A stretch of DNA of 64,000 nucleotides from an uncultured bacterium (GCA_964610505.1 CAZSXU010000014.1:4652-68651), one strand, 5' to 3'; counted from the first letter of the stretch, positions 23,901-56,153 are shown. Made by a program: numbers and translations. Notes: generated from the letters alone by a model not told the origin.

Positions 23901-24672
23901 AATCGACCAGAGGTTGCACGTTGGAGGTCCAGGCATCGTAGCAGATAACGAGCATCGTGCCTTCTTCGTCGACGGACGCGTAGCGATTCGGGTCATGATT
24001 GATGAAGTGCTCGCTATAGACCTGGTTGAAATCCCGCGTGAGCGTCTGTAGAGAATGAAGGCGTTCCAGCTCGTTCACGCCGGCGGAAAACGCCGGCCGA
24101 ACCTCGACGACTACATGCGTGTACACGCGAAGCGTCTGAGTTGCCGGGTTGTACTGGAAGGGATTCAGGACCACGACGGCGCCGCGAAAGTCTCTGAAAA
24201 TGTAAGGATCTCGATGGGTCGCGACCTCGGCCGGATACCAGGCATCGGTTTCGTAAAACGGATCGAAGGTGTAGGGAACGTCCTCCGGGTTCACGGTGCG
24301 CAGAAGGTTGCCCTTTGAGGGAGTGACGAGAACTCCGGAGATCTCGCGGTATGCGGACTCGAGAATCCGAAGATCGAGGCCTCCCGCATCGGCGAGAATT
24401 ACGCTTCGGCAGATGTTGGGAAGTTCGGGAAACCCGGCGGTGAGGTCCTTGCTCTCTCCTCCCAGGCCGATCCTATGGTAGGTCTCCCCGTCGATTTCGA
24501 CCGGAGTACGATCGAACCCGTTCACGCGGTACTCGATCACCGTATTGCCGATGTCGGCCCGAAGAACCTCCACGGAGAACGGCAGGGGTCCCTGTCCGAT
24601 CTCGATCCAGTCGGCCAGCGCCGGGGTCGCCGTGAATCCCGCCATGATGAGCACCACTAGCGCATTCCGCAT
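20920..24672 (-). CDS. C25 (gingipain-like) cysteine peptidase with C-terminal T9SS-type sorting domain
   Basis: Signal peptide MRNALVVLIMAGFTATPALA; catalytic-region motifs (YCGHGG, FSVACNVGEF); C-terminal ~80 aa (SPNPFNPVTEIVFALPEDTAVNLSVYDVHGRLVRTL...SGIYFCRLTAGGKILTKKMIMLK) match the Por-secretion/FlgD-Ig-like tail by recall. SD GAGGAGAGG before the ATG. Confidence 0.7.
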   Translation of the reverse strand: MRNALVVLIMAGFTATPALADWIEIGQGPLPFSVEVLRADIGNTVIEYRVNGFDRTPVEIDGETYHRIGLGGESKDLTAGFPELPNICRSVILADAGGLDLRILESAYREISGVLVTPSKGNLLRTVNPEDVPYTFDPFYETDAWYPAEVATHRDPYIFRDFRGAVVVLNPFQYNPATQTLRVYTHVVVEVRPAFSAGVNELERLHSLQTLTRDFNQVYSEHFINHDPNRYASVDEEGTMLVICYDAWTSNVQPLVDWKNQMGLETEMVTVTQAGGSASAIDTYITNAYNASGGELVYVLLVGDYLECPTPIVSSAASDPSYSLITGSDNYPEILIGRFSAENTGQLDTQVERTVEYERDPQPGASWYHKGFGIGSAEGPGDDGEDDWEHIDNIRADLLAYTYTEVDQIYDPGASSSSVTIAVNGGRSIGTYCGHGGVTGWSTTGFSVSHVNALTNHDMLPFIFSVACNVGEFDGYTCFAESWLRATNGSVPTGAIGFYGSTISQSWDPPMCAQDECVDLLVADEKRTFGALCFNGSCQMMDEYGSFGEGEFLYWTVFGDPSLAVRTDTPATMSVNHDEAIDPEATTFAVTVVGIEGARCAISCCDGEYHGHGFTNASGYVDIPIVGTLSEETATLTVTAYNKSPYITTLTVGGSGPSKPTGLTAEPGDAEVVLSWDANTEPNLSYYIIFRDRAPEPTDSLDVVYAPDTTYLDPAVQNDSTYHYRIKAVDTDGNPSIFSNEVSATPEQPPVIFITHTPLADTGDATHPYPVVAQITTTAAPLDPDSLFVVFKTFGDWEPIQMWSTGTPDEYRADIPAQTCGTVVSYYILAVDTAHNRETDPNLAPGAYHDFQITYTAAFADDLESDLGWTVGAGDDGATTGIWERCDPNGTNDGTHQVQPEDDHTVAPGTQCYITGQSPVGAAQGDNDVDGGKTTLFSPTIDLSDYSSALVSYYRWYTNDTGSEPGTDVWKVDISDDGGGSWENLETTNVSNRSWAFQQFNIGDYVDLTTQVLVRFVAEDAGGGSIVEAGVDDFQILACPLPGDTEPPTVVVLDPNGGEELESTTDYPILWHAEDNEGVTAVNIFLSYDSGLTFPDTLAMGEVNDSVYVWPVVDVDATTCRIRIDAWDGGGNSASDMSDADFTITDATDVADRTRRHPTEVALSQNSPNPFNPVTEIVFALPEDTAVNLSVYDVHGRLVRTLADGLYKAGTHAAHWEGRDTRGVEASSGIYFCRLTAGGKILTKKMIMLK

Positions 24673-24920: not shown

Positions 24921-25040
24921 CTGAATTCGATATGATTATGCCACATTCGGCCGGAGAAGTCAATCGGGAAACCCGACAAGGGCAACCACGGATTTCACGG
25001 ATTCCAGAGAGCCATCTTTCCTGCAAGGTGACGAAGATGG

Positions 25041-25100
25041 GGCAAAGAACCGAAAGCCGAGAGCCGAAAGCCGGAACCCCCATGCCCCGGGCCGGCCGCG
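25041..25100. repeat. Copy A of a degenerate repeated element (AAAGCCGAGAGCC ... CGGGCCGGCCGCG)
   Basis: Shares AAAGCCGAGAGCC and CGGGCCGGCCGCG blocks with 35118..35159 and GCCGAAAGCCGG-N2-CCCCC-N-TGCCCC with 35341..35367. Confidence 0.6.
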
Positions 25101-25112
25101 CAGAGAGCGAGA

Positions 25113-27101
25113 TCACTGAAGGTATCCCAACGACCGGAGTCTTTCGGTCGTCCGTCCGTCGAGGTCCGTCGGCGTGGCCGACGAGGCGGGCACGGTGCCG
25201 GAGGCCTTTCGCCAGGCTGAGAGGATTTCGATCAGCTCCTCCGTCCGGTGCGGTTCGGTGGACACCCGGTTGACGAGTTCTCCGGGGTCATCGGCGAGGT
25301 CGTAAAGGTGGTGGACTTCTCCCCCGATTTGAATGAGCTTCCAGGCGCCGTCGAAGACGGCCGCCTGCTCTCGGCCCAGGTCCGGATTCCTCTTCACAAG
25401 ATCCGGTTCGGGATGCAGTTCGGCAAAACAGCGTCGATGGGTGAGCGAGTCGATGGGCCCCGGTCCCGTCCACAGGCGCGCGAGGCTCTTGCCCTCCGTC
25501 TCTTCGGGAGGATCCAGGCCGAGAATCTCCAGGACGGTGGGAACGATGTCGATGGTCTGGACCCGAGTATCGACGCGAACGTTGCCGGGAACGCCCGGAC
25601 CGGAGATGAGCAGAGGGACCCGAAGGGTCGGATTGTACAGAGATCCGCGGTGCCCCATCCGCCCGTGCTCTCCGAAGGACTCGCCGTGGTCGCCGGTTAC
25701 CACGACCAGCATCTCTCGCTCGGTTTCGCGCCCCTCCAGGGATCGGAGCAGGCGGTCCATGACGGTGTCCAGATAGAGCAGCTCTCCGTCGTAGAGATCG
25801 GTGATGTAGCGAAGGTCCCGAGTGGAAAGGCCGGCTTCGTCGGCCAGAATGAAGTCATCATGGGAAGCCGGGTTTCGTAGAGGGCCCGAGTACTCGGGGT
25901 TCGACAGGAACGCTCTTCGGAATTCCCCCGGGGGGTCGTACGGAGCGTGGGGGTCGTTGAAATTCACCAGCAGAAAATACGGACGGGTCTCCAGTCCGTC
26001 GATCCAGCGAAGGACCGATTCGGCCGTGTTCTGCGCGCGTCTCTCGGCGTATTCCGAACGGAAGAGAAACGACAAACCGACCTTGCTGGCGATCCTCCAG
26101 AGAGATGTCTTGCGGATCCAGGAATCCAGCTCGTCGTCGTAGACGTCGAAACCCTGATCCAGATTGAAGATCTTCGACAAGAACGGATTGCTCACGAAGG
26201 CGCCGGTTGCGTACCCGTTACCGGCCAGGGTCTCGGGCAGAGACACGTTCTCGTTCTCCAGCTTCCAGTGCTGCCAATGGGCTCCGTGACTCCGGGGAAA
26301 GCGACCGGTGAGAATGGACGCGTGGCCGGGCAGGGTCCAGGGTGACGGGGACACCGCGTCTTCGAACGTCACCCCCCGGGCGGCCAGGGTCTCCAGGAAA
26401 GGCGTCGTCCGGCGCTCGTAGCCGCAGCAGGAGAGGTGGTCGGCGCGGGTCGTGTCCATCACCCAAAGAAGAACGTTGGGAAGCAGAGGACTCCCACGTG
26501 CCGGTGGAAGGGGAGGCGTGTCCGAAGGCCCCGGCGCTCTCATTAGAAGGGGAGGAAGAAAGGACATCCCCAGGACCACCAGGACCGACATTCCCCCAAC
26601 GGCCATGCACGGGCGTACGGCGGGTCCGCTCCCGCGGGAGATTCCCGGGAAGAGGACTCGCAGGATCCGTCGCCAGAGGGGAAACAGTGCGGCGGATCCG
26701 AGCGCCAGTCCCGCTGTGGCCGCCAGGCTCACCCCCGCCAGTAGATCCGTGCCCGGAAGAAGAGAAACATGGACGTACGTGGCCAGGGGAAGGAAAACGA
26801 GCAGACTCAGAAGAGCGGCTCCGGCGTCTTCCGGCCGCGGCGCACGTCCCAGGCGCCCGAGGCCCGCGGCGTAGACAGGGCCCCAGAGAAGACCCAGGAG
26901 GCTTCCCAGCCCGGCATGAACGAGAAACGCCCAGAGCACGATGGGGGTCCGGGCGGGCCAGTGGATGAGATCCACCACGATGGAAACGCCTTGAAGGAGG
27001 CCCAGTCCGCCCCCTGCCGCCGCGCCGACGACAAGTCCCCACGCTGCGAACCGGGCCCGAGAGAACCGTGGCGCTTTCTCTCCGGGATTCAGCGCCCGCA
27101 C
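25113..27101 (-). CDS. Membrane-anchored sulfatase-fold (alkaline phosphatase superfamily) enzyme; probable phosphotransferase (EptA/LtaS-like) rather than true sulfatase
   Basis: N-terminal ~230 aa multi-TM region then sulfatase-like domain (PNVLLWVMDTTRADHL...ILTGRFP). By manual alignment to the arylsulfatase C-T-P-S-R signature, the formylglycine position is Thr (T-L-P-G-H). Start set near a GTG that overlaps the GT2 stop; the track ORF extends to 27233. Confidence 0.7.
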   Translation of the reverse strand: MRALNPGEKAPRFSRARFAAWGLVVGAAAGGGLGLLQGVSIVVDLIHWPARTPIVLWAFLVHAGLGSLLGLLWGPVYAAGLGRLGRAPRPEDAGAALLSLLVFLPLATYVHVSLLPGTDLLAGVSLAATAGLALGSAALFPLWRRILRVLFPGISRGSGPAVRPCMAVGGMSVLVVLGMSFLPPLLMRAPGPSDTPPLPPARGSPLLPNVLLWVMDTTRADHLSCCGYERRTTPFLETLAARGVTFEDAVSPSPWTLPGHASILTGRFPRSHGAHWQHWKLENENVSLPETLAGNGYATGAFVSNPFLSKIFNLDQGFDVYDDELDSWIRKTSLWRIASKVGLSFLFRSEYAERRAQNTAESVLRWIDGLETRPYFLLVNFNDPHAPYDPPGEFRRAFLSNPEYSGPLRNPASHDDFILADEAGLSTRDLRYITDLYDGELLYLDTVMDRLLRSLEGRETEREMLVVVTGDHGESFGEHGRMGHRGSLYNPTLRVPLLISGPGVPGNVRVDTRVQTIDIVPTVLEILGLDPPEETEGKSLARLWTGPGPIDSLTHRRCFAELHPEPDLVKRNPDLGREQAAVFDGAWKLIQIGGEVHHLYDLADDPGELVNRVSTEPHRTEELIEILSAWRKASGTVPASSATPTDLDGRTTERLRSLGYLQ

Positions 27102-28282
27102 GTGATTCTCCGCTCGTCCGCAGGTTGCTCCGGAATGCCGCCCGGTGCGGCGGGATCCGTCGACCCGCCGCCGGGATCCCCCCGCGGCGCCATCGGTCCG
27201 GGGACGGAGCTTTCGCTTCGCCTTCGGCTGCATTCTCGAACGAGCCCCCAGAACGATCCGATCGCAAAGGTAAGATTACCCATAAGAACGAAGACGGGCA
27301 CCGCGAGTCCCAACCGGGGCGAAACCCGAAAGGCCCTGGCCGAAAGCGGAGTGGAGAGAGCCAGCGAGGTGAGAACGAGACCCAGGCTCACCAGCCCCGC
27401 GAGTGGGAAGACCAGGGCCAGGGGAAGGAAGAGAAAGGCAAGGCCGAGGAGCAGAATCCCGGTTCTCCGGGACTGGGGAGTGCTCCTGTCCGTCGTGACC
27501 TTGTTCGGGTACCGGCGGTAGAGGGAAAACGCATACCTCGAGTACTCGAACTTCCTTCGCAGATAGATCCCCAGCGTCTCCGGATGGCGATGAAGGACAC
27601 GAGCGTCGGGAACGTAGATCATCCGGTGCCCGCCCTCCGCAAGCCGGAAGGACAACTCCACGTCCTCCAGCCGCCGGTAGCGCTCGTCGAACGGATGGTC
27701 GACAAGAAGCTGCCGCCGGAAGGCCGAGTTCCCCGATCCGACAAAGTCGGTCCGATCCCGCCCGGCCATTCGAGCATATCGCAGATCCAGCTCGAACTGA
27801 ACAAACCTCGCCATGACGGACTCTTGTTCCGAACTACACCGTCCCACCGTTCCTGCGAGCGTGGTGTCTTCCAGCAAAGGTCCCGTCAGTTTCCGCAGCC
27901 AATCCCGATCGGGGTCACAGTCCGCATCGATGAACGCGACAATGTCCCCTCTTGCCTCGAACACGCCTCGATTGCGGGCCCCGGCGGGTCCGTGTTTCTC
28001 CTGGCGGATAACACGGGCACCGAACGGGGATGCCGCATCGGAGACCCCTGCCGCGGAACCGTCATCCACGACCACGATTTCAAATTCTTCCGAAGGCACG
28101 GATTGGCGCCGGAGCGAGTGCAGACAGCGCACCAAGTCTTTCATCGCGTCTCGAACGGGAATGATGACGGAGATTCTCGGGTTCTGCGAAGTCACTGGGC
28201 CTCTCTCTCCCCTTCGGCGTCCGCTTCCGGCCGGTCTCGGCCTTTCCTCGAATAAGGTATCAGGTCCCGGCGGGCGGTACAA
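27089..28282 (-). CDS. Glycosyltransferase family 2
   Basis: ISVIIPVRDAM, VVVDDGSAAG, DADCDPDRDWL motifs; C-terminal TM helices. Confidence 0.8.
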   Translation of the reverse strand: MYRPPGPDTLFEERPRPAGSGRRRGERGPVTSQNPRISVIIPVRDAMKDLVRCLHSLRRQSVPSEEFEIVVVDDGSAAGVSDAASPFGARVIRQEKHGPAGARNRGVFEARGDIVAFIDADCDPDRDWLRKLTGPLLEDTTLAGTVGRCSSEQESVMARFVQFELDLRYARMAGRDRTDFVGSGNSAFRRQLLVDHPFDERYRRLEDVELSFRLAEGGHRMIYVPDARVLHRHPETLGIYLRRKFEYSRYAFSLYRRYPNKVTTDRSTPQSRRTGILLLGLAFLFLPLALVFPLAGLVSLGLVLTSLALSTPLSARAFRVSPRLGLAVPVFVLMGNLTFAIGSFWGLVRECSRRRSESSVPGPMAPRGDPGGGSTDPAAPGGIPEQPADERRITCGR

Positions 28283-28369
28283 CCCACAAGTGCGCCGGGC
28301 GCAAGTGCGCCGGGCGTCGATGCTCGGGTTCGCCGGCGGACGAAGGGCCCGACATTGAAAGTACAGAAC

Positions 28370-29509
28370 TCATGAGAATGGAGGCGGATGGCCCTCAGGG
28401 AGCCGGTCGAGGATTTCCGTGAGCGCCGCAATGACGTCGTCCGGCGAGATGGCTTCCATGCACTCGGGGTTCCCGCGCTCGCAGTCCTTCTGCGAGCAGG
28501 GCGAACAGGGAAGCCCGCCGTAGAGGACGATGTGATCGGGACCGAACGGTCCGAAACGCCGGGGATCCTGCGGCCCGATGAGGGCCACGACGGGGGTTCC
28601 GACGGCGGTTCCGACGTGCATGATCCCGGTGTCCACGGAGACCAGTGCGCTTGCCTGGGAGATCACGGCCACGGTTTTCTCAAGGTCGGACGAGCGGGCG
28701 ACGGACGCCGCTCCGATTCCCACCTCTTCGGCGATACTTTCCGTTTCCTCGGCTTCCTCGCGTGAACCGGTGATGATGACGCCCAGCCCGCGGCCGTCGC
28801 GGAGCCATCGGGCAACCTGCACGAACCGGTCCCGGGGCCATTTCCTCAAGGGAGAGGCCGCGCCGGGATGGATCACCGCAAATGTCTCAACGTCTCCCAC
28901 AAGGCCGGGTCTTTCCCGCTGGAACCACTCGAGCGCCTGTCCTGCAATCGGCAGAGAGGGCCGGACCCCGGACCCCGGCGGCTCGCAGTGTCCAACGATG
29001 CACAAGTTGGTTTCCACCTCGTGCGTCGGAATGAACCCGGGGTCGAAACCCAGTCGGGCCGCCCATCGCTTGATCTTCATCCGGATTCGAACGGTGCCGC
29101 GGTCGACGCGCTTCCCGGCGCCGGAGCGAGCGGCGTAGGCGAGCGATGCCCGGTCGTCCCGCAGGCCCACGATGAGATCGTAGGATCGTGACCGAAGCAC
29201 CGTCGAGAGGTTCGGGGCGACCCGCAACGGCGCGCCCCGGATGTATTCGGGGCTGGCATAGATCAGAATCCGATCCAGCGCCGGGTGGGCTTTCATCAGG
29301 GGCCGGGCCCAGGGACCGATCACTCCGGTGATCTCCGCCTCCGGATGGAGCGCCCGAAGATGGGAGAGGGCGGGCGTGGCCGTCACGACGTCTCCGAGGT
29401 GATCCAGCTTGAAGACCAGGATTTTCCTCACGGGGCGCCTGGAGAACCATCCTCGGGCGTTGACCAGGAGACTCACAAGAGCCGAGGCTATGAAGAAGGC
29501 ATACTCCAC
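28370..29509 (-). CDS. Glycosyltransferase family 9 (LPS heptosyltransferase-like)
   Basis: KILVFKLDHLGDVVTATPALSHLR start and overall GT9 layout. Confidence 0.8.
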   Translation of the reverse strand: MEYAFFIASALVSLLVNARGWFSRRPVRKILVFKLDHLGDVVTATPALSHLRALHPEAEITGVIGPWARPLMKAHPALDRILIYASPEYIRGAPLRVAPNLSTVLRSRSYDLIVGLRDDRASLAYAARSGAGKRVDRGTVRIRMKIKRWAARLGFDPGFIPTHEVETNLCIVGHCEPPGSGVRPSLPIAGQALEWFQRERPGLVGDVETFAVIHPGAASPLRKWPRDRFVQVARWLRDGRGLGVIITGSREEAEETESIAEEVGIGAASVARSSDLEKTVAVISQASALVSVDTGIMHVGTAVGTPVVALIGPQDPRRFGPFGPDHIVLYGGLPCSPCSQKDCERGNPECMEAISPDDVIAALTEILDRLPEGHPPPFS

Positions 29510-30672
29510 TCCGGGCTCCTCTCAGATTCCAACGTTCCGTCGAGCAAGCGGGCATACGTGTCCTTGTGCGCCTCGACCACGCGCCGCCAGGTGAAATGCC
29601 GAAGGACCCGCTCGCGCCCGGCCGCCGCCAGGCGGGCGCATGTCCGGGGATCGTGGTAGAGCTCCTCAAGGGCCCCGGCGAGCGCCACCGCATCTCCCTC
29701 CGGCACGACGACGCCTGCATCGCCGATCACCTCCGGAATAGCCCCCGAATCGGACCCGACGACGGGAACCTCGCACGCCATCGCCTCGATCAGCACCCGG
29801 CCGAACTGCTCCTTCCACGTGGGAGTCGTAAGCGAGGGGAGCACCAGGACGTCCATGAGGTTCATCCGGTCCGGGACCTCTCCGTGGGTGACGTTGTCGT
29901 CGATGACCAGACGATTCTCCCACCCCTCCGCCCGGGCGCGGGCCCGAACGGCGCCGGCCTCCGGTCCGCCTCCCACGACCAGCAGGCTCCAATCCATTCG
30001 GAGAAACGACAGGGCTTCGAGCAATACCCGGATTCCCTTGGCCGGAATCAGCCGGCCCGCGAACCCGATGACGAATTCCCGAATGCCCCGTTCGGATCCG
30101 GTTTTTTCCACCTCCCGTCTGCAGAACCGCTCCGGATCCACGCCGAAGGGGACGTGGCGGATGGGCCGGGTGAATCCTCGGGATTCAAGGACCCGTCGAG
30201 CTTCTCCCGAAGACACCAGTCCGCAATCCGACACCCTCTGGACGATCCGCTGAACTCCCCCGTAGAACCATGACGGGCGGCAGGGGTACCGGAAACCCGT
30301 GTTCAGGTTGTCGAAGGTGTAGAAGACAATCCGCGTCGCCGGACACATGCGTTTCGAGAGGAGCGCAACCTGGAGCGCCATCAGGCTGTAGGGTTCTTCC
30401 ATCAGCTGGAGCACGTCCGGGCGCGCGGCCCGAAGCGCCCGCCGAACGCCCGTGTAGAAGAATCCCCGGTTCTCGTATCCCCGGAATCCGGCCTTTCCCG
30501 TGAGAATCCTGTACCCCGACGCGTCTCTTCCGGCTCTGACCACCCTTCCTCCCTCGACCCACGTTTCGGGAACGAACACCGTCAGGTCGATGTCCGGGTC
30601 CGTCGAGAGAACGCGATACCGCTCTCTGAACACATCGACGCCACCCGTGTGATCCACCGCCAGAACCCGCAT
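29488..30672 (-). CDS. Glycosyltransferase family 4
   Basis: GT-B C-terminal domain with E-x7-E-like region (EQFGRVLIEAMACEVPVVGSDSGAIPEVI). Confidence 0.8.
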   Translation of the reverse strand: MRVLAVDHTGGVDVFRERYRVLSTDPDIDLTVFVPETWVEGGRVVRAGRDASGYRILTGKAGFRGYENRGFFYTGVRRALRAARPDVLQLMEEPYSLMALQVALLSKRMCPATRIVFYTFDNLNTGFRYPCRPSWFYGGVQRIVQRVSDCGLVSSGEARRVLESRGFTRPIRHVPFGVDPERFCRREVEKTGSERGIREFVIGFAGRLIPAKGIRVLLEALSFLRMDWSLLVVGGGPEAGAVRARARAEGWENRLVIDDNVTHGEVPDRMNLMDVLVLPSLTTPTWKEQFGRVLIEAMACEVPVVGSDSGAIPEVIGDAGVVVPEGDAVALAGALEELYHDPRTCARLAAAGRERVLRHFTWRRVVEAHKDTYARLLDGTLESERSPEWSMPSS

Positions 30673-30673
30673 C

Positions 30674-32119
30674 TCAATTCTCCGAACCGTTGTCCCGCCG
30701 GGAGAGAACGGCGTCCCGAATTTGTTTCCTCTCCTCCGGACGGATCGCCCGCGTCAGCAGAAGGGTCGCCGCATAGACACCGGCCCCCACGGCCACCGCC
30801 CCGGCCAGGTTGAGCGAATCCCAGGCGAGAAGGACGGCCGTCATGGTACATCCGGAGACGGCCAGCTTGACGAGCCGCGCGGGGCTCAGCCGAACGCCCG
30901 TGTAGCGGATCACCAGGAAGGAGAACAACCCGGCCAGAAGTACCTGAGTCACGAGCGTCGCCCGGGCCGCGCCCAGATGCGCGTACCTCGGAATCAGAAT
31001 CAGGTTCAGCGCCACGTTGACGACGACCCCGACCAGGGAACAGTAAAACGTGATCTTCTGCCGGTCGATCGCGCCCAGGACGACACCGAGGAAGTTGTTG
31101 ATGAAGACGAAAAAGAGGGCGGCGCCGATCCAGCGAAGCACGGGGATCGTCTCCACATATCCTTCGCCGAAGAGGGTCCACACGATGCGGTCGCTGACCA
31201 GAGCCAGTCCCAGGGCCATGGGCAGCCCGAAGGCCATCATGAATTCCCAGGCCCCCGCAACGGCCGTTCGCAGCCGGTCCTCCGAAGTCGTCTTGAGCTT
31301 TGAGAGGGTCGGGAACACGGTGTTGATGAAGGCGGCCGGCAGGTACACCAGTCCTTCCAGCAGCCGATATCCCGCGCTGTACCATCCGACGTGTCGGCTT
31401 CCCTTCATGGCCGAGAGCATCACCACGTCGATTTTGAAGTAGACCAGTCCGAGCACCAGCGCCAGGGCAAAGGGCGTGGCTTCTCGGATCAGCAGTCGCC
31501 AAAAGGCGAAATCTACTTTCGGTGTGAACCGGAATCCCATCTGGCGCGACAGAACGGGCATCGAAATAACGAGATTCAGGGCCGCCTCCAGAAGAAAAAC
31601 CAGAGCGATCCAGACCATCCCCAGACCCAGGTGAACCACGAGTAGCCCGACGAGAATGGCGACCAGTTTGCTCACGACCATGATGATGGACGGGAACTCC
31701 ATCTTTTCCCGGCCGAAGAAGACGGAGTTGGACGTGGCGTAGAGTCCCGCGATGGACGTCGAGATTGCGGCGATGTAGACCGGTCCGAGCGTGGCGGTCG
31801 TGGCGCCCGTGTGGAGAGCGATGAACACCGTCAACGGGATGGAGATCACCGAGAGGGTCATGCGGAGCGACAGGACGTTGGAGAAGTACCGCGCCGCCTC
31901 TTCCGGGCGCCGGGCCACGGCGCGCGTGATGACCGAAGAAAACCCGAACTCGACGAGAATGCCGATGAGACTTCCGAGAGAAAAGGCATAGGTCAGGTGT
32001 CCGAACCGGGCGTCTCCCAGGTGGCGGGCGATGATGGCCAGCCAAACCAGACCCAGGATTTTCACCGTGACCTGACCGGCGAACATCACGCTGGAATTGA
32101 ACAGGACCCTACGAAGCAT
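30674..32119 (-). CDS. Polysaccharide flippase (Wzx/MOP superfamily)
   Basis: 481 aa, about 12-14 TM helices, polysaccharide-biosynthesis-protein layout; between a GT and the ligase-like gene. Confidence 0.8.
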   Translation of the reverse strand: MLRRVLFNSSVMFAGQVTVKILGLVWLAIIARHLGDARFGHLTYAFSLGSLIGILVEFGFSSVITRAVARRPEEAARYFSNVLSLRMTLSVISIPLTVFIALHTGATTATLGPVYIAAISTSIAGLYATSNSVFFGREKMEFPSIIMVVSKLVAILVGLLVVHLGLGMVWIALVFLLEAALNLVISMPVLSRQMGFRFTPKVDFAFWRLLIREATPFALALVLGLVYFKIDVVMLSAMKGSRHVGWYSAGYRLLEGLVYLPAAFINTVFPTLSKLKTTSEDRLRTAVAGAWEFMMAFGLPMALGLALVSDRIVWTLFGEGYVETIPVLRWIGAALFFVFINNFLGVVLGAIDRQKITFYCSLVGVVVNVALNLILIPRYAHLGAARATLVTQVLLAGLFSFLVIRYTGVRLSPARLVKLAVSGCTMTAVLLAWDSLNLAGAVAVGAGVYAATLLLTRAIRPEERKQIRDAVLSRRDNGSEN

Positions 32120-33596
32120 GTTCCGAATTCCCGGCGACGGGGGTTATGGATTTCGCCCTCTGCTTCGCTATCCGCGCGCAGACGGCCACGGCTCCGACGA
32201 AGGTCCAGGCGGGCACAAGAACCTTGTCCCACGAAGGGTAGTAGTTGAACAGGCCGTGAATGGCGTAGCCGACCAGGCCGGCCGTCAGGGCGACGGTCAT
32301 CTGCGCCACGGGTTGACCTCTTGCGCCCGCATCGCGGCAGAGGTGTAGCGTGCGGCGAACCACCGAGAAGAAAGCGATGGCAAAGAAGAGTCCCACCGCG
32401 GCGCCCACGACCCCTGTCTCCGAAAGAACGCTCAGGTAGATGCTGTGCGCGCCCGCCTTGGGGCTGGATTCCGTGGTGGCCAGCTGGATTCGGCGAAATT
32501 CGTAGTAGTGGTGTTTGTACATTCCGAATCCCACTCCGCCCAGCGGATGGGCCCGGAACATATCCCAGGCGGCCGCCCAGCGGTTGAGGCGCTCCAGGTT
32601 GGAGATGTTGGTTTTCAAGTTTACCACGGACTGGGCGTGCTGGGACAGCATCGAGGTGGATCGCAGGAGGGTGGCGCCCATCACGATGAGGGCCAGCACC
32701 AGGATCACCACGACGAACCCTCGGCTCCTTCGAGACTTGAGCGAGTAGTACAGGAAGGTGGCGAACATTCCGAAGAAGCCCAACCACGCCGCGCGGGTGA
32801 GTGAGAACAGGATTCCAGCCAAGGTCATGAATCCCACACAGGCGAAGAAGAATCTTTCGATGCTCTTCTTCGCCCACAGGAGGGACACCGCGGCCATGGG
32901 GAACGCGAAACACAGATAGGCGGAGAAAGTCCCGTGCTCGGCGAAGAAGGGCAAGGCGCTCACGTTGCTGCTCTCGACGCTGAGGCCGCCCCGGGCCAGG
33001 TTCACGAGATAGTAGCCGCCGGCCGCCGCTGCCGGGACGGAGAATACGGCGGCAAACCTCCGCAGGTCTCTTATGTTTCTCAAGCTTAGAAGTGCCAGGA
33101 AATAGCCGAAGATCACGTACCAGGCCAGATTGGCCGAGGCTTTCAGGCAGGCCACGGGATGACGCGTGTAGAAACAGGAAACGAAGGCCAGCGCCAGGAT
33201 CAACGACACGGCCCGGGTCAACCGCCGCGAGGAGAGCAGGATTCTGGATCCCTGGAGGAGGCGGAAGAGCCAGATGCCTTCGAGGAGCAAGATCATGGGT
33301 TCCGTGGGCGCCTGGAGCGCCGAGCCGGTACCGGGAATCATGATTTCCAGGGAAAAGGGTACGAGCAGGGCGACGGTCAACCACGCGGCGGTGGGCCGGA
33401 GCCAGGCCAGCGTAAGGAAGGCCAGCCCTCCCATCACGAAGATTCCCGCCAGGGGTCCCTCGATTCCAAGGGCCAAGAGGACGGCGCATTCCCCGAGGAA
33501 CACGGCTGCGGGCAGGACCCATCGAACAGAGCCCGGAGGAGGCGTGGACGGAGCCCCCGGGATGGCGGCGTTCTGGACATTTGCCGAATCGGTCAT
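32109..33596 (-). CDS. O-antigen ligase/polymerase family membrane protein (Wzy_C-like)
   Basis: Multi-TM protein with a large periplasmic loop containing the ligase-type GAHSIYLSVLSETGVVG motif. Confidence 0.7.
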   Translation of the reverse strand: MTDSANVQNAAIPGAPSTPPPGSVRWVLPAAVFLGECAVLLALGIEGPLAGIFVMGGLAFLTLAWLRPTAAWLTVALLVPFSLEIMIPGTGSALQAPTEPMILLLEGIWLFRLLQGSRILLSSRRLTRAVSLILALAFVSCFYTRHPVACLKASANLAWYVIFGYFLALLSLRNIRDLRRFAAVFSVPAAAAGGYYLVNLARGGLSVESSNVSALPFFAEHGTFSAYLCFAFPMAAVSLLWAKKSIERFFFACVGFMTLAGILFSLTRAAWLGFFGMFATFLYYSLKSRRSRGFVVVILVLALIVMGATLLRSTSMLSQHAQSVVNLKTNISNLERLNRWAAAWDMFRAHPLGGVGFGMYKHHYYEFRRIQLATTESSPKAGAHSIYLSVLSETGVVGAAVGLFFAIAFFSVVRRTLHLCRDAGARGQPVAQMTVALTAGLVGYAIHGLFNYYPSWDKVLVPAWTFVGAVAVCARIAKQRAKSITPVAGNSEHAS

Positions 33597-33683
33597 CGTT
33601 TCAGGGACCCCCGGAACGGCCGGATGTGGCTCCGCGCGCTGCTCGGAACGGGCCGCGGGGATTGCGGCTACGGGGTCACGCGG

Positions 33684-34922
33684 CTACCCACGAGGCCCTC
33701 CCCCCCTGCTGAGGCGGTTCCAGTCTTCCGTGAGGGCCCGCGTGATGGCGTCCAGGCGCCGAACGTTCTCCGGATCGCGGCGCCAGCGATCGACCGAGTC
33801 CATCCCGAAGGCCAGGGCCACGCTGCCGAGAAAAGCGGCGGCGAACGCGATGACGACGATCAGCCATCTCTTCGGCCTGGATTTCTTCTCGGGCGGCGAG
33901 GCCCGGTCCAGGACTTGGATGGTCGGGGTATCGCGCGATTCCATGATCTTGGCCCGCTCGTACTCTTGGGCCAGAAACGCGTGGATCTTGGACTGCAATT
34001 CCACGTCCCGGAGCAGTCGGACATACTGCATCCCCAGGGACGGCAGCTCGCTCAACGAGGGGAAAGGTTTCGATTCACCGTTCTGAAGGAAAGCCTCCGT
34101 CAATTCCGAGGTCCCGAGGAGTTCCGTCAACTGCTTTTCGAGGTTTGCCTTTCGGTTTGCCAGGGATTTGATTTCCGGGTTGCTGTCGGTGGCATAGGTC
34201 GACAGCGTGGCCAGGCGGATTTCGGTCGTGCGGATCTGGGACTCGATCTCGGCGGCGGCCGAGATGAGCGCCTGGGTTTGCTCCGTGAGCTCGACGGCCC
34301 CGTATTCCTGCTGGTAGGCCTGCAGCGCCTGCTCGGACTCGCCAAGTTCCAGCCGGGTTTCTTTGAGGCGTTCCTCGACAAACATCCGGGTCTTCTTGCC
34401 CTCGGTCATTCGCGTGGTCCGGTTAAATTCGTCGAGCACTTCCAGAAAAGCATTGGCCATGTCGGCGGCGCGGTCGGGATCCTTGGCCTCCACGGCAATG
34501 GAGATCAGGCCCTCATCCACCACACGTACCCATCGGTGCTTCTCCAGCTTGCGGATGGCTTTCTCCATCGTCTTCGCTTTGTACAGGCGTTTGAGGTCGA
34601 ACTCGTCGATGATCTTCTCCGAAACGTAGCGGCTTCGGAGGATGGCCCCGTACACATCGGACGTCGTGGCGAACCACGGAAGGTTGGCCGTAGCGGCCGT
34701 CATTTGCAGCGCTCCGAGACTCATGAGCGGATCCATCGACGTCTCGGGCGGCAGGATCACGGCCGTGGTTCTGTACCACTTGGGAAGAACCAGCGAGAGG
34801 ACGACGGCGAGAAACACCACGGCCGCGACGTTGATGGCGATCAGCCGACGGCGCCTCACCAGCGTGTCCAGGGCGTCCAGGGACACAGATCCTTTTCCGG
34901 GCGTCGGGTTGGCATCCTGCAT
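33684..34922 (-). CDS. Polysaccharide chain-length determinant (Wzz/PCP family, no kinase domain)
   Basis: N-terminal TM, long coiled-coil periplasmic domain, C-terminal TM (RWLIVVIAFAAAFLGSVALAF). Confidence 0.7.
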   Translation of the reverse strand: MQDANPTPGKGSVSLDALDTLVRRRRLIAINVAAVVFLAVVLSLVLPKWYRTTAVILPPETSMDPLMSLGALQMTAATANLPWFATTSDVYGAILRSRYVSEKIIDEFDLKRLYKAKTMEKAIRKLEKHRWVRVVDEGLISIAVEAKDPDRAADMANAFLEVLDEFNRTTRMTEGKKTRMFVEERLKETRLELGESEQALQAYQQEYGAVELTEQTQALISAAAEIESQIRTTEIRLATLSTYATDSNPEIKSLANRKANLEKQLTELLGTSELTEAFLQNGESKPFPSLSELPSLGMQYVRLLRDVELQSKIHAFLAQEYERAKIMESRDTPTIQVLDRASPPEKKSRPKRWLIVVIAFAAAFLGSVALAFGMDSVDRWRRDPENVRRLDAITRALTEDWNRLSRGGGPRG

Positions 34923-35092
34923 GATCGGTCCGCGGCCCGGATCGACGGTGCGGGAACCGGGCGGTTGAAGAACCGTGAGTTCGACATCCGGGCGTTCGGC
35001 CGCCCGGAGCGTTCCCTTACTCTATCCGGGCCGGTGGGGCAAGTCAATTGTAAAGGGGCGCATGGGCGACCCGGAGACTGCGGAACAACGGG

Positions 35093-35159
35093 ATGGCGGG
35101 ACTGCGAGTCAACTGCCAAAAGCCGAGAGCCAGAACACACAGTCCTCGGGCCGGCCGCG
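35093..35159. repeat. Copy B of the degenerate repeated element
   Basis: ACTGCGAGTCAACTGCCAAAAGCCGAGAGCC...CGGGCCGGCCGCG; related to 25041..25100 and 35303..35367. Confidence 0.6.
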
Positions 35160-35302
35160 GTGAAGGTTCGCCGGATCGAAAGCCGCAGCGTGGCCTGTTC
35201 GCCCGAGTGAATCGTCGCCCTCCGTGCCGACCTGTATTCCCCTTCACGCTGCGGCAGAGAGACGCCGGACCTTTGCCGCGGCTGGGGGCCCGCGCAGGAA
35301 AC

Positions 35303-35367
35303 GAGACTGCTGGTCAACTACCCAGAAACCGATCGGCGAAGGCCGAAAGCCGGGTCCCCCTGCCCCC
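35303..35367. repeat. Copy C (partial) of the degenerate repeated element
   Basis: GAGACTGCTGGTCAACTACCCAGAAACCGATCGGCGAAGGCCGAAAGCCGGGTCCCCCTGCCCC; 5' half resembles copy B, 3' half resembles copy A. Confidence 0.5.
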
Positions 35368-35505
35368 GCGCCCCAATTCTCTCTCTTGGCTTTGTCCGCC
35401 GATTCGACTATCCTGAGGGCGGCTTCTCGGCACCGAGGCGCCGAGAAGGGATCTCCGTGAAATCCGCGCAATCTGCGGTTGCGCCGTCGGCCTTGAGAGG
35501 TCTTT

Positions 35506-36720
35506 GTGAAGATCCTCTTCGTCACAACCGAAGTCCCCTCCCCGCGCGGGAGCGGGGGGTTGATCGCCAACTACTACCACCTGCGCGGTTTGGTCAGGGA
35601 GGGCCACGAGGTCACCCTCGTTTCCCTGGCGCCGCGAGGCGCGGCCGGGGCGCGCGTTGACATCGACGGGCTCCATCGATCGATGCTCATCCCGGGCGTT
35701 CCGCCGACCACGGTCGGCGGGCTGATGGCGAACGTGTTCCAGAAGGAGCCGTTTCCCATCCGCAAGTACATGAAGGTGGACGCCGGATCGGGCCTTCGGA
35801 CTCTCGCCGTCGAGCATGTCTTCGATCTGGTTCACCTGGCCGGCCTCCACACGGCGCATCTCGCCGAGGATCTTCGAAACGTCGTGCACGGCCCGATGGT
35901 TCTCTACGAACACAACGTGCAGGCGAAAGTGCACGAGTTGTTCTACCGGATGCAGCGGGATCCGCTGAGGCGATGGTACGCACGGCTCCAGTGGAAGAGG
36001 ATGTTGGCTTACGAGGCGGAGGTGTGCCGGCGCTTCGATTGCGTGCTCACTTTCTCCGAGCCGGACGCGGGGAGACTGGCGGGGCTATCGAAGGGCGCCA
36101 GGGTCTCATGGTTGCCTCTTGCCGTGGACGCCGAGAGGTTGTCCAGAATTTCGACGAGCGAGGCGTTCGATGTGCTGTGGATCGGATCTCTCCGGTGGTT
36201 GCCGAACATCGACTCGCTCCGGTGGTTTGCGGATGAGATTGTGCCGAAGATCCTTGCGGGTCGGCCGGAGACATCCGTCGCCGTCGCGGGATCCTCGCCG
36301 CCGCCCTGGCTGAAGAAGCTCGCCGGGCGAAGTCCGCGAATTCGCGTTCTCGGTGAGGTCGATGACGCCTACGACCTCATGGGCCGCTCGAGGCTGATCG
36401 TGGTTCCGCTTCGCATCGGAAGCGGCGTTCGAGTAAAAATCCTCGAAGCGCTTGCGCTTCGCCGCGCGGTTCTGAGCACGACGCTCGGATGCGAGGGGAT
36501 CGAAGTCGAGTCGGGCAAACATCTGGTGGTGGCGGATGATCCGAAGGCGTTTGCCGGCGAGGCAATTCGTCTTCTGGACGACGACCGTCGGCGGAGTGAT
36601 CTCGCCGCGCGTGGTTACGATTTGGTTCTCGCGCGTCACGACTACCGCAAGGTCGGCGCGAAGATGTCGGCACTCTACGAGAGCCTGCGGCAAGGCGACA
36701 CGGTTCAGGCGACACGGTGA
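35506..36720 (+). CDS. Glycosyltransferase family 4
   Basis: GTG start per ORF track; GT-B fold with C-terminal GT4 signature region (RVKILEALALRRAVLSTTLGCEGIEV). Confidence 0.8.
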   Translation: MKILFVTTEVPSPRGSGGLIANYYHLRGLVREGHEVTLVSLAPRGAAGARVDIDGLHRSMLIPGVPPTTVGGLMANVFQKEPFPIRKYMKVDAGSGLRTLAVEHVFDLVHLAGLHTAHLAEDLRNVVHGPMVLYEHNVQAKVHELFYRMQRDPLRRWYARLQWKRMLAYEAEVCRRFDCVLTFSEPDAGRLAGLSKGARVSWLPLAVDAERLSRISTSEAFDVLWIGSLRWLPNIDSLRWFADEIVPKILAGRPETSVAVAGSSPPPWLKKLAGRSPRIRVLGEVDDAYDLMGRSRLIVVPLRIGSGVRVKILEALALRRAVLSTTLGCEGIEVESGKHLVVADDPKAFAGEAIRLLDDDRRRSDLAARGYDLVLARHDYRKVGAKMSALYESLRQGDTVQATR

Positions 36721-38730: not shown

Positions 38731-38749
38731 CAGCCACAGATTCCACAGA
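38731..38749. repeat. 19-bp exact direct repeat, copy 1 (CAGCCACAGATTCCACAGA)
   Basis: Identical to 48320..48338; immediately 3' of the Mur ligase stop and 25 bp upstream of a consensus promoter. Confidence 0.9.
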
Positions 38750-48319: not shown

Positions 48320-48338
48320 CAGCCACAGATTCCACAGA
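48320..48338. repeat. 19-bp exact direct repeat, copy 2 (CAGCCACAGATTCCACAGA)
   Basis: Identical to 38731..38749; 30 bp 3' of the Memo-like gene stop. Confidence 0.9.
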
Positions 48339-48474
48339 TTTTGACGAGAGGGACAAGGTCAAGGGCCATCCGCAGATGACGCAGATCAATGCGTAACCCC
48401 GATGCCCCTGTCCAAGCTCAACTTTCGACTGTCGACTTTCCATTTTCTCGGGCCGGCACTGCCCGGCCCGTTGG

Positions 48475-49978: not shown

Positions 49979-50368
49979 ATGAACTGGCTACCTTTTATGA
50001 TTCCCATTACCTTCATTCTGGGCGCTTTTGCCGTGGGCATCGTGGCGGTGATCATGAAGTCCAAGGCAAAGGATCGTCAGCACCAGGAGCGTATGTTCTT
50101 GGCCGAGAAAGGATTGCCGGTTCCCCCCGAGCTCTATGAGGTTTCCGAGGAAAAGAAACCCAGCGAGTTTCGGGGGTTTCGTGCGGTCCTCATGGTGCTC
50201 GGGTGCGTCACGACGCTCGTGGGGGTTTCGGTCATGATCGCACTGGGTGTTCGGGACGGCATGCAGGACGGCATAAACGGTGTGATTCCTCTTCTGATCG
50301 GCATCGGGATTCTGGTGGCCGAGAGGATGATCAACACCCTCATCGTGAAGCCCGGCAGGGAACAGTAA
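49979..50368 (+). CDS. Hypothetical small membrane protein
   Basis: 129 aa, 2-3 TM helices; SD-like GCAAGGGGGTG before the ATG. Its stop codon is the first base triplet of the 44-bp repeat array. Confidence 0.5.
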   Translation: MNWLPFMIPITFILGAFAVGIVAVIMKSKAKDRQHQERMFLAEKGLPVPPELYEVSEEKKPSEFRGFRAVLMVLGCVTTLVGVSVMIALGVRDGMQDGINGVIPLLIGIGILVAERMINTLIVKPGREQ

Positions 50369-50555
50369 GACACCGGTCAATCAGTGTGAAGCGCGCCGGC
50401 AAGGAAGGGTAAGACACCGGTCAATCAGTGTGAAGCGCGGCGGCAAGGAAGGGTAAGACACCGGTCAATTAGTGTGAAGCGCGGCGGCAAGGAAGGGTAA
50501 GACACCGGTCAATCAGTGTGAAGCGCGGCGGCAAGGAAAGGTAAGACACCGGTCA
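50366..50555 (+). repeat. 44-bp tandem direct repeat, 4 full copies plus a 14-bp partial fifth
   Basis: Units start at 50366, 50410, 50454, 50498, 50542: TAAGACACCGGTCAATCAGTGTGAAGCGCGGCGGCAAGGAAGGG, with 1-2 substitutions per copy. No spacers, so not CRISPR. Confidence 0.95.
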
Positions 50556-56084: not shown

Positions 56085-56153
56085 GAACGAACCTCGGAAC
56101 CTCAGAACTCAGAACCGAGAACTCAGAACTGGGACCTTAGAACTCAGAACCTG
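56085..56153. repeat. Tandem heptamer repeat (GAACTCA)n, about 9 imperfect units
   Basis: GAAC recurs with exact 7-bp period from 56105 to 56153 (gaactca gaaccga gaactca gaactgg gacctta gaactca gaacctg), preceded by two 8-bp variants. Fills the 72-bp gap between the GWxTD-like gene stop and the lipid kinase start. Confidence 0.85.

What the first reader, a model, noticed from the sequence alone, without database searches (positions are those of the whole stretch)
25041..35367. Degenerate repeated element at both ends of the ~10-kb minus-strand polysaccharide operon
Copy A (25041..25100) lies in the 3' UTR just after the last gene; copies B (35093..35159) and C (35303..35367) lie in the 583-bp leader region upstream of the first gene (Wzz-like). 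Shared blocks are AAAGCCGAGAGCC, CGGGCCGGCCGCG and GCCGAAAGCCGG-N2-CCCCC-N-TGCCCC. Such bracketing could mark cassette boundaries (recombination or horizontal replacement of the polysaccharide locus), operon-specific leader elements analogous to JUMPstart/ops, or small-RNA genes.
Basis: seen in the sequence. Interest (0 to 1): 0.45.

Follow-up and report, generated by a model that had tools for sequence, protein, structure and literature searches.

The report
Dispersed structured intergenic repeat, not operon-specific
The three look-alike sequences flanking the polysaccharide operon are real, but they are pieces of an undescribed multi-copy intergenic repeat (a purine-rich heptamer linker plus a conserved ~150-nt hairpin) found next to many unrelated genes in this uncultured Eisenbacteria-like bacterium, so their position around the operon is most likely coincidence.

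Summary
A, B and C are significantly similar and are the only such copies in the window. The operon-specific interpretation is not supported.

The three copies are fragments of a 188-nt repeat unit. The unit is a linker L (3-4 GNNGARA heptamers followed by CCGGAACACACC..CCCC) plus a ~150-nt hairpin H. Units form arrays of the type (L-H)n-L'.
- B is the L of one full unit, whose H lies at 35144-35295.
- C is that unit's degenerate terminal L'.
- A is a solo L.

A metagenome pattern scan, an HMM and a covariance model found 19 arrays (22 full H copies in the search that also covered L106). They lie on 13 other contigs with the same tetranucleotide signature as the window. All are intergenic, in every orientation relative to their neighbours, next to functionally unrelated genes, at about one array per 30 kb.

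H shows strong covariation (92-93% of cells paired against 37-50% in slid controls) and G·U pairs mainly on one strand. One H copy occurs in a second MAG. None was found in 92 kb from four other Eisenbacteria assemblies, in Rfam, in viral contigs or in plasmids. The orthologous Wzz|GT4 spacer in the closest syntenic relative is 187 nt, against 583 nt here.

Best reading: a lineage-restricted family of REP/BIME-, BOX- or MITE-like structured repeats. A family of structured RNAs remains possible.

The parts
24983..25013 (+). Module M2 (CAACCACGGATTTCACGGATTCCAGAGAGCC; a CRCRGATT tandem motif). It precedes the repeat in several family copies.
   Evidence: The same module order M2-M3-L is seen in L007, L026, L033 and L085 (alignment; flanks). 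M2-like matches are listed.
25014..25042 (+). Module M3 (..TTTCCTGCAAGGTGACGAAGATGGGG; resembles a Shine-Dalgarno sequence plus ATG).
   Evidence: Conserved in front of L in A, L007, L026 and L085. In L109 the equivalent AGGTGA-N6-ATG is the start of a real kinase gene.
25043..25106 (+). It corresponds to unit positions 1-56 and ends 6 nt from the sulfatase stop codon (25113-25115).
   Evidence: nhmmer match 25051-25106 to HMM positions 1-56, E 5.6e-9. Exact 30-mers at 25046-25077 are shared with L031/L043, L055 and L085. TRF reports a 14-nt period at 25046-25078.
35097..35117 (+). Locus-specific segment (CGGGACTGCGAGTCAACTGCC). It is repeated at 35302-35322, which marks a local ~1.3-fold tandem duplication.
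   Evidence: The segment is absent from the family consensus.
35112..35143 (+).
   Evidence: nhmmer match 35112-35295 to HMM positions 3-187, E 2.4e-44; alignment A1.
35144..35295 (+). Hairpin H: a ~150-nt, covariation-supported stem-loop. Invariant features are the GGGCC/GGCCC base, the CGCCGGA/GACGCCG internal motif and the C-rich apical sequences CCNCCCTCC and CCCCTTC.
   Evidence: Covariance model R1 scores 121.4 bits, E 3.8e-21, on the + strand only. Structure and covariation. Fold z-score is -2.2 on the + strand and -0.1 on the minus strand.
35302..35322 (+). Second copy of the locus-specific segment (CGAGACTGCTGGTCAACTACC).
35327..35372 (+).
   Evidence: blastn-short vs A: 46 nt, 76% identity, E 3.6e-5. 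It sits where terminal partial units (positions 1 to ~45-65) end most other arrays.
35449..35482 (-). Inverted M2-like module (reverse complement of CAACCGCAGATTGCGCGGATTTCACGGAGATCCC) just upstream of the GT4 start codon.
   Evidence: The 13-mer CGGATTTCACGGA is shared in inverted orientation with 24989-25001. M2-like regex match at 35463(-).

Best explanation
A, B and C are parts of a multi-copy, non-coding, mosaic intergenic repeat family of the host genome, which is an uncultured bacterium related to Candidatus Eisenbacteria.

The unit (188 nt) has two parts:
- a purine-rich linker L made of 3-4 heptamers GNNGARA followed by CCGGAACACACC..CCCC;
- a ~150-nt imperfect hairpin H.

Units occur singly or in same-orientation arrays (L-H)n that usually end in a partial L'. 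Accessory modules (M1 heptamers, M2 CRCAGATT repeats, M3) are sometimes present.

Shown by the analyses:
- The family exists, is intergenic and is dense (about one array per 30 kb).
- It is not tied to any gene function or gene orientation.
- It is missing from orthologous spacers in relatives.
- The hairpin is maintained by compensatory changes, with G·U pairs favouring one strand.

Inferred:
- The hairpin matters in a single-stranded form, either ssDNA during replication or recombination, or RNA when transcribed through.
- Arrays grow and shrink in place by tandem duplication or slippage between L linkers. The B..C pair duplicates a locus-specific 18-mer, which supports this.
- Hairpins may be lost by deletion, leaving solo L copies such as A.
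- Spread to new intergenic sites uses an unidentified trans-acting function.

For the polysaccharide operon the element is most likely a passenger. B-H-C sits between the divergent promoters, and A is a hairpin-less linker read antisense in the 3' region.
For: Family and architecture:
- The metagenome scan with a degenerate pattern matching A, B and C gave 88 loci. The only ones whose flanks also align come from the two metagenomes that contain the window's own contig.
- nhmmer found 44 matches, and unit boundaries are reproducible. Covariance model R1 found 22 full H copies at 116-158 bits, only one of them in the window.
- Family contigs have tetranucleotide correlations of 0.965-0.988 with the window, against 0.88 or less for GC-matched unrelated contigs.

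Context:
- All 19 arrays are intergenic. They occur in divergent, convergent, sense and antisense settings.
- Neighbouring genes are functionally diverse, and no transposase gene was seen.

Structure:
- 33-34 base pairs, 14-17 of them with compensatory changes.
- 92-93% of cells are paired, against 37-50% for slid controls, and 0 of 500 shuffles reach the observed values.
- 60 G·U cells against 14 A·C cells.

Not conserved by position:
- The orthologous spacer is 187 nt in the closest syntenic relative and 141 nt without the element in L107.
- No H copy in 92 kb from four other Eisenbacteria assemblies.
- One H copy at a different site in MAG GCA_964568945.1.

Multi-copy nature seen in assembly:
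- A Logan k=31 contig ends exactly at 25048 and 35174, inside A and inside the B unit. A's 30-mers are shared with four other contigs.

No known family:
- No Rfam match, no viral-contig match, no plasmid match.
Against: - No transposase, target-site duplication or other mobility signature was found, so how the element spreads is unknown.
- The degree of covariation, the invariant internal-loop motif (CGCCGGA/GACGCCG, which I read as a C·C mismatch next to tandem G·A pairs), the conserved C-rich apical sequences and the one-strand G·U bias are more typical of a functional RNA than of inert repeated DNA.
- All six contigs carrying two arrays have both in the same orientation. This hints at a directional process that the explanation does not specify.
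- Only about 200 kb of the lineage was sampled. Assignment of the other contigs to the same genome rests on composition only.
Confidence: 0.72

Rival explanations
1. H, with or without L, is a multi-copy structured RNA. It could be a family of small regulatory RNAs whose C-rich apical sequences (CCNCCCUCCU, CCCCCCUUC) pair with Shine-Dalgarno regions, or a protein-binding or sponge RNA whose GNNGARA heptamers and invariant internal loop are protein sites.
For: - Strong covariation and a strand-specific excess of G·U pairs.
- The + strand folds better than shuffled sequence (z -2.2) while the minus strand does not (z -0.1).
- The covariance model scores about 150 bits on one strand and about 25 on the other.
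- Loop and internal-loop sequences are invariant across about 7 diverged subfamilies and in a second MAG.
Against: - No sigma70-like promoter or intrinsic terminator is associated with the unit, although the organism clearly uses TTGACA/TATAAT promoters (flanks).
- In several sense-upstream cases the neighbouring gene's promoter lies downstream of the array, so the array would not be transcribed from it.
- Orientation relative to flanking genes is arbitrary: between co-directional genes, 2 arrays are sense and 6 antisense.
- The element is not positionally conserved and is absent from four related genomes.
- Dozens of copies in heterogeneous tandem arrays are unusual for small-RNA genes.
Confidence: 0.2
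2. The copies mark recombination boundaries of a replaceable polysaccharide gene cassette. Direct repeats at both ends would mediate excision or exchange of the 10-kb locus.
For: - A and B/C are in direct orientation at both ends of the operon.
- Relatives differ in operon content: a different glycosyltransferase before the sulfatase in the P0004 contig, and a relocated sulfatase in L107.
- A Logan contig spans exactly the A-to-B interval.
Against: - The A/B similarity is 45 nt at 80% identity, with no exact run longer than 13 nt.
- Relatives with a different gene order lack the element at these junctions.
- Pairs of same-orientation arrays 2-10 kb apart also flank unrelated gene sets in L021, L028, L033, L055 and L059.
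- The contig break is explained by 30-mers shared with copies elsewhere.
Confidence: 0.05
3. An operon-specific cis-regulatory leader analogous to JUMPstart/ops, recruiting an RfaH or NusG paralogue.
For: Only its position near the start of a long polysaccharide operon.
Against: - No GGCGGTAG in the spacer.
- The element is on the opposite strand and upstream of the predicted promoter.
- The same element is found at many unrelated loci and is absent from the orthologous spacer.
Confidence: 0.02

Closest known systems
REP / BIME elements of Enterobacteria and Pseudomonas (including REPINs)
   Same: - High-copy, strictly extragenic palindromic repeats clustered into mosaic arrays in which hairpins alternate with specific linker motifs.
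- Hairpins are thought to act in single-stranded form.
- No coding capacity.
Features of REP/BIME are taken from the abstracts of PMC3333891, PMC2817692, PMC3733652 and PMC3116915.
   Different: - REPs are 20-40 nt, whereas H is about 150 nt.
- BIMEs alternate REP orientation, whereas here all units in an array, and both arrays on every two-array contig, point the same way.
- No GTAG or CGTC tag and no RAYT gene was seen in the sampled sequence.
- The linker here is a heptamer run.
- There is no sequence similarity.
BOX elements of Streptococcus pneumoniae (boxA-(boxB)n-boxC); comparison from my own knowledge
   Same: Modular, intergenic and able to form stable secondary structure, with a variable number of tandem internal modules and defined terminal modules.
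   Different: Different phylum, sequence and module sizes. BOX has three module types, whereas here the units are L-H with a terminal partial L'. No homology.
Hairpin-forming MITEs (Correia/NEMIS, ERIC/IRU, RUP)
   Same: 100-200-nt intergenic elements whose long imperfect inverted-repeat arms fold into one hairpin. Dozens to hundreds of copies, lineage-restricted, with presence/absence differences between relatives (reviews and examples: PMC3184786, PMC2759123).
   Different: - No target-site duplication and no parent insertion sequence was found.
- The arms are not simply conserved as transposase-binding inverted repeats; they covary with a one-strand G·U bias.
- Units are embedded in heptamer linkers and form head-to-tail arrays that mix subfamilies.
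JUMPstart/ops leader of polysaccharide operons; comparison from my own knowledge
   Same: Located near the 5' end of a long polysaccharide operon.
   Different: The ops octamer is absent, the strand is wrong, the element is upstream of the predicted promoter, and it is not specific to polysaccharide loci.

Membership tests
JUMPstart/ops | The 8-nt ops element GGCGGTAG within a ~39-nt JUMPstart in the transcribed leader, on the sense strand | tested here: not met
   The only GGCGGTAG in the window is at 27514(+), inside the operon on the opposite strand. None lies in 34923-35505.
JUMPstart/ops | Located downstream of the operon promoter, in the 5' UTR | tested here: not met
   The only sigma70-like minus-strand site is at 35047..35019. 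B and C lie upstream of it and on the + strand. This rests on a consensus prediction only.
JUMPstart/ops | Restricted to polysaccharide, conjugation or virulence operons | tested here: not met
   Other copies flank genes for an OPT transporter, radical SAM enzyme, tRNA synthetase, GntR regulator, Dus, HAD hydrolase, histidine kinase, peptidases and symporters.
REP/BIME | Extragenic and high copy number | tested here: met
   19 arrays, all intergenic, in about 200 kb of compositionally matching sequence.
REP/BIME | Short (20-40 nt) GC-rich palindrome with a GTAG or CGTC tag | tested here: not met
   The hairpin is about 150 nt. Its consensus starts GGGCCGG and carries no GTAG or CGTC tag.
REP/BIME | Alternating orientation of the palindromes within clusters | tested here: not met
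   All units in every array are head-to-tail on one strand.
REP/BIME | A cognate RAYT (Y1 transposase) gene flanked by the repeats | not testable with these tools
   No such gene lies next to the sampled arrays, but the whole genome is not available.
MITE (Correia/ERIC-like) | Terminal inverted repeats that allow a single long hairpin, length 100-400 nt | tested here: met
   Arms of about 47 nt pair across H.
MITE (Correia/ERIC-like) | Target-site duplication flanking each copy | tested here: inconclusive
   H is almost always embedded in the same L context, so its flanks are not independent. The one L-less copy (L106) shows an extension of the stem (CTTC/GAAG), not a direct duplication.
MITE (Correia/ERIC-like) | A related autonomous insertion sequence with the same termini | not testable with these tools
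   None in the sampled loci, none in viral contigs, none in plasmids.
Any Rfam RNA family | Covariance-model match at or near the gathering score | tested here: not met
   The whole window gave 0 matches at gathering thresholds. Region 34900-35520 at E up to 10 gave only a chance 13-bit hit to a vertebrate UTR element.
Independent small-RNA gene | Own promoter and terminator delimiting the structured part | tested here: not met
   No sigma70-like promoter or terminator-like site lies within or at the unit borders in the window. None is visible in the conserved flanks of other copies. Other promoter types are not covered by these scans.

The most novel reading that the evidence does not exclude
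H is a previously undescribed class of functional structured nucleic acid in Candidatus Eisenbacteria. Either it is a multi-copy ~150-nt RNA with an invariant protein-binding internal loop and C-rich anti-Shine-Dalgarno-like apical sequences, with the GNNGARA heptamer linker serving as a protein-binding platform. Or it is the single-strand recombination substrate of a new, orientation-specific mobile-element system that builds head-to-tail arrays. In support of a broader class, a heptamer run followed by a long hairpin recurs with an unrelated hairpin sequence in another Eisenbacteria genome (L109).
Probability: 0.25. Interest if true: 0.65.

Novelty: new member of a known kind. Interest (0 to 1): 0.38.

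Why it matters
For the operon it means little. The flanking copies should not be read as regulatory or cassette signals, and annotation pipelines should mask them.

More broadly, this gives a first description of an abundant structured repeat family in an uncultured phylum (Eisenbacteria-like). It comes with a usable covariance model and a specific search pattern.

Such repeats break metagenome assemblies, as the Logan contig here shows. They can serve as strain markers. With their unusually strong strand-specific covariation and heptamer linkers, they are a reasonable candidate for either a new mobile-element mechanism or a new RNA class.

Tried and rejected
- Rfam search of the whole window at gathering thresholds and of the spacer at E up to 10 found nothing.
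- The genome-contig scan with a pattern covering A, B and the canonical copies gave 13 scattered hits in unrelated taxa, which I take to be chance. The source species is therefore not among the GTDB representatives, or its copies differ from the pattern.
- Viral-contig scans with the L pattern and with a 26-base H pattern gave 0 hits. A blastn search of plasmids gave no match.
- Most of the 88 metagenome hits outside the two source metagenomes are coding sequence or unrelated (GCCGARA)n runs in soil contigs. Their flanks do not align with the family.
- GC skew and coding-strand bias against element orientation were inconclusive: the element strand is the C-rich strand in 10 of 14 loci, and it lies on the minority coding strand in 7 contigs against 4.
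- An integron attC reading was considered because of the same-orientation, structure-conserved hairpins. I rejected it: no GTTRRRY/RYYYAAC core sites appear at the H borders in the consensus, arrays contain no cassette ORFs, and the flanking genes are ordinary chromosomal genes.
- A coding reading of M3-L (AAGGTGA-N5-ATG...) was considered. The 7-nt periodicity, the many copies lacking M3 and the antisense overlap with the sulfatase gene argue against it.
- An apical helix (alignment A2 columns 65-69 with 81-85) is only moderately supported, at 77% paired.
- The P0004 contig could not be read because no DNA was returned, so only gene coordinates were used.


Full report
**1. The observation**

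- AAAGCCGAGAGCC occurs exactly twice in 64 kb; 0.14 matches are expected.
- The long A/C block matches only at 25063 and 35342; 0.00 expected.
- CGGGCCGGCCGCG alone is not significant: three matches, and 9 of 100 shuffles do as well.
- The repeat finder groups 25056-25100, 35115-35159 and 35335-35379 as one family at 80% and 64% identity.
- In a short-word blastn of both spacers against the window, A/B (E about 1e-6) and A/C (E about 4e-5) stand far above everything else.

- B and C share a further 18-mer, GACTGCnnGTCAACTnCC.
- A 42-nt imperfect inverted repeat lies between B and C.

**2. Gene context**

The minus-strand genes, in order of transcription, are Wzz/GNVR (33684-34922), Wzy_C, Wzx, GT1, GT9, GT2 and sulfatase (25113-27233). 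They are followed by a C25 peptidase with a T9SS sorting domain (20920-24672). On the other side lies a divergent GT4 gene (35506-36720).

So B and C lie in a divergent spacer, not simply in a leader. The only sigma70-like minus-strand site there is TTGACT-17-TAGAGT at 35047..35019, which puts B and C upstream of it.

A begins 6 nt beyond the sulfatase stop codon, on the antisense strand. It is followed on the minus strand by TTGACT-17-(TG)GCATAAT at 24963..24935. After that comes a GC hairpin with a T run at 24925-24890. I read this hairpin from the sequence; the terminator scan did not call it.

**3. What the copies belong to**

Source of the window:
- It comes from a metagenome contig recovered identically from ENA and JGI assemblies (0-4 mismatches).
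- A Logan k=31 contig, seen in four samples, spans exactly 25048-35174. It ends inside A and just inside the B unit.

The pattern scan:
- The degenerate pattern GSCRARRGCCGARAGCCRGNNCNCNC matches A, B and C and nothing else in the window. It had no hits in viral contigs.
- In metagenome contigs it gave 88 loci. Most are unrelated coding sequence or plain (GCCGARA)n runs.
- About a dozen distinct contigs from Ga0180431 and Ga0180432, the metagenomes that also hold the window's contig, align far beyond the pattern on both sides.

The unit:
- Iterated nhmmer defines a 188-nt unit and finds 44 matches.
- The unit is a linker L plus a long hairpin H. L consists of 3-4 heptamers GNNGARA (types GCCGARA, GTYGARA, GGTGARA) followed by CCGGAACACACC..CCCC.
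- Arrays have the form (L-H)n, n = 1-3. They usually end in a partial unit covering positions 1 to about 45-65.

In the window:
- B is the L of the single full unit (35112-35295).
- C is the degenerate terminal partial L.
- A is a solo partial (positions 1-56), preceded by modules M2 and M3. The same modules precede L in L007, L026, L033 and L085.
- Covariance model R1, built from 19 H copies, finds exactly one H in the window (35144-35295, 121 bits). It finds 22 full copies overall, scoring about 150 bits on one strand and about 25 on the other.

**4. Is the family linked to polysaccharide operons?**

No.
- All 19 arrays are intergenic. They lie between divergent, convergent and co-directional genes, in sense or antisense orientation.
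- Their neighbours include an OPT transporter, a radical-SAM enzyme, a class I tRNA synthetase, a GntR regulator, an esterase, a Na:alanine symporter, an aldehyde dehydrogenase, an S49 peptidase, Dus, a HAD hydrolase, a SPOR protein, a histidine kinase, an M14 peptidase, a TPR/PMT_2 protein and an SSF symporter. No transposase gene was seen.
- The family contigs match the window in tetranucleotide composition (r = 0.965-0.988). The window's two halves give 0.99, and GC-matched unrelated contigs give 0.88 or less. They are therefore the same genome or close relatives.

Density:
- Apart from the array that brought each locus in, there are 5 further arrays in 139 kb. The window has 2 in 64 kb. 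Both figures give about one array per 30 kb.
- At that density, a second array within 10 kb is expected about 29% of the time.
- Five of 13 other contigs do show two arrays 2-10 kb apart, around unrelated genes.

The contig break at A is explained by exact 30-mers (25046-25077) shared with copies on four other contigs.

**5. Relatives**

The closest named homologues are Candidatus Eisenbacteria MAG proteins: GT4 at 67% identity and CzcA at 76%.
- In the closest syntenic contig (GT4 66%; Wzz-Wzy-Wzx-GT1-GT9-GT-sulfatase conserved), the Wzz|GT4 spacer is 187 nt, against 583 nt here. That is too short to hold the array.
- In L107 the order differs (sulfatase next to GT4), the spacer is 141 nt, and nhmmer finds no copy in the 16.5 kb.
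- MAG GCA_964568945.1 (GT4 70%) has one clear H (137 bits) downstream of its Mur ligase gene. It lacks a heptamer linker but keeps all the invariant motifs.
- Four other Eisenbacteria assemblies (92 kb in all, including part of a 2.69-Mb closed contig) have no H.
- Two of those assemblies do have (GCCGARA)7-8 runs and CACAGATT-type repeats. One run is followed by an unrelated 84-nt near-perfect hairpin (z = -4.2). Another is followed by the AGGTGA-N6-ATG start of a kinase gene.

The family is therefore restricted to a narrow lineage and is not conserved by position. The layout of a heptamer run plus a long hairpin may be more general in the phylum.

**6. Structure**

- RNAalifold on 19 units (mean identity 74-76%) predicts a rod of 29-33 pairs, 14 of them with compensatory changes.
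- For the named structure, 92.9% of cells are paired, against 37-50% when partners are slid by 1-3 columns. There are 83 double-change cells against 4-15 in the slid controls. No shuffle out of 500 reaches the observed pairing or covariation score.
- Adding an apical helix gives 34 pairs, 17 of them with compensatory changes.
- The helix at alignment A2 columns 44-51/103-110 exists in at least four different sequence versions that all pair.
- G·U cells outnumber A·C cells 60 to 14. This means 92.9% of cells are pairable on the element strand, against 85.6% on the complement.
- The window copy folds better than shuffled sequence only on the + strand (z -2.2 vs -0.1).
- Invariant non-covarying features are the GGGCC/GGCCC base, CGCCGGA opposite GACGCCG, and the C-rich apical sequences CCNCCCTCC and CCCCCCTTC. 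I read the CGCCGGA/GACGCCG motif as a C·C mismatch next to tandem G·A pairs.

**7. How it most likely works**

Shown: this is a dense, intergenic, lineage-restricted repeat whose hairpin is kept by selection or templated copying on one strand, with no tie to neighbouring gene function.

Inferred:
- (a) Arrays change in place by tandem duplication or slippage between linkers. In the window the B..C duplication includes a locus-specific 18-mer that is absent from the family consensus.
- (b) Solo L copies such as A may be units that lost the hairpin. A's tail, GGCCGCGCAGAGAGCGAG, resembles the 3' tail plus junction of the neighbouring unit, GGCCCGCGCAGGAAACGAG. The covariance model also finds an H with its interior deleted in L055.
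- (c) Arrays mix subfamilies and linker types (L021, L026, L059). Both arrays on all six two-array contigs share the same orientation. This suggests directional insertion next to existing copies, but no mobilising gene was found.

The unit contains no sigma70-like promoter or terminator. In several loci the neighbouring gene's promoter lies between the array and the gene. This argues against a cis-acting mRNA element, and argues weakly against independent small-RNA genes.

**8. Comparison with known systems, and verdict**

The element works like the structured extragenic repeats of other bacteria: REP/BIME, BOX, and Correia- or ERIC-type MITEs. It fails the defining features of each family on size, orientation pattern, tags and target-site duplication. 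It has no sequence or model match anywhere searched. It is not JUMPstart/ops.

I classify it as a new member of the known kind "dispersed structured intergenic repeats". About one chance in four remains that H is a functional RNA or the substrate of a new mobile system.

The significance attached to the copies bracketing the operon is not supported.

Noticed in passing
window 50353-50555: 4.6 copies of a 44-nt tandem repeat (95% identity). It begins inside the last codons and stop codon of ORF 49979-50368(+) and extends into the intergenic region, so each unit repeats the gene's 3' end.
   Followed up: partly
window 56089-56152: A run of about 7-9 CTCAGAA heptamers in the spacer between two minus-strand genes. 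A similar CAGAAC/CTCAGAA run sits next to a solo L in L043. Heptamer runs of several sequences (GCCGARA, GTYGARA, GGTGARA, CTCAGAA; GTGACAG in L106; TAGTCCC in L107) look like a general trait of these genomes' intergenic DNA.
   Followed up: partly
window 38731-38749 and 48320-48338; also 48371-48385 and 48418-48472: The exact 19-mer CAGCCACAGATTCCACAGA (module M2) occurs 20-35 nt after the stop codons of two + strand genes. The second site is followed by CGCAGATGACGCAGA, a reverse-complement T-type heptamer block (CTCAACTTTCGACTGTCGACTTTCC) and a GC hairpin. These are further fragments of the same mosaic repeat system.
   Followed up: partly
window 24963-24890 (minus strand): A strong sigma70-like promoter, TTGACT-17-(TG)GCATAAT (10 of 12 matches), is followed within about 10 nt by a GC-rich hairpin and a T run. 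This is about 220 nt upstream of the C25 peptidase start codon. It is either a terminator for the operon overlapping the next promoter, or a very short transcript or attenuator.
   Followed up: no
window 25024-25039; L109 18672-18700; L033, L059, L032: Module M3 reads AAGGTGA-N5-ATG, like a ribosome-binding site plus start codon. In L109 the same layout (heptamers, then CACAGATT repeats, then AGGTGA-N6-ATG) precedes a real kinase gene. In three family loci the ATG opens a conserved 10-codon ORF, M(G/E)PWARA(K/N)A(P/L).
   Followed up: no
L109 13140-13345 (and the same in L111): Seven GCCGARA heptamers followed by an unrelated, near-perfect 84-nt hairpin (fold z = -4.2), downstream of czcA in another Eisenbacteria MAG. 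This is the same layout as L-H but with a different hairpin sequence.
   Followed up: partly
L021, L028, L033, L055, L059 and the window: On every contig that carries two separate arrays, both arrays are in the same orientation (6 of 6). The relation to replication direction could not be established from local skew.
   Followed up: partly
window 40967-41086: A 51-nt tandem repeat (2.4 copies, 85% identity) inside the membrane-fusion-protein gene of the RND efflux operon.
   Followed up: no
window 34957-35007 and 35423-35448: Two further palindromes in the divergent spacer. One is a 51-nt imperfect palindrome in the predicted 5' UTR of Wzz. The other is the 26-nt hairpin CTTCTCGGCACCGAGGCGCCGAGAAG upstream of GT4. 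Neither is part of the repeat family.
   Followed up: no
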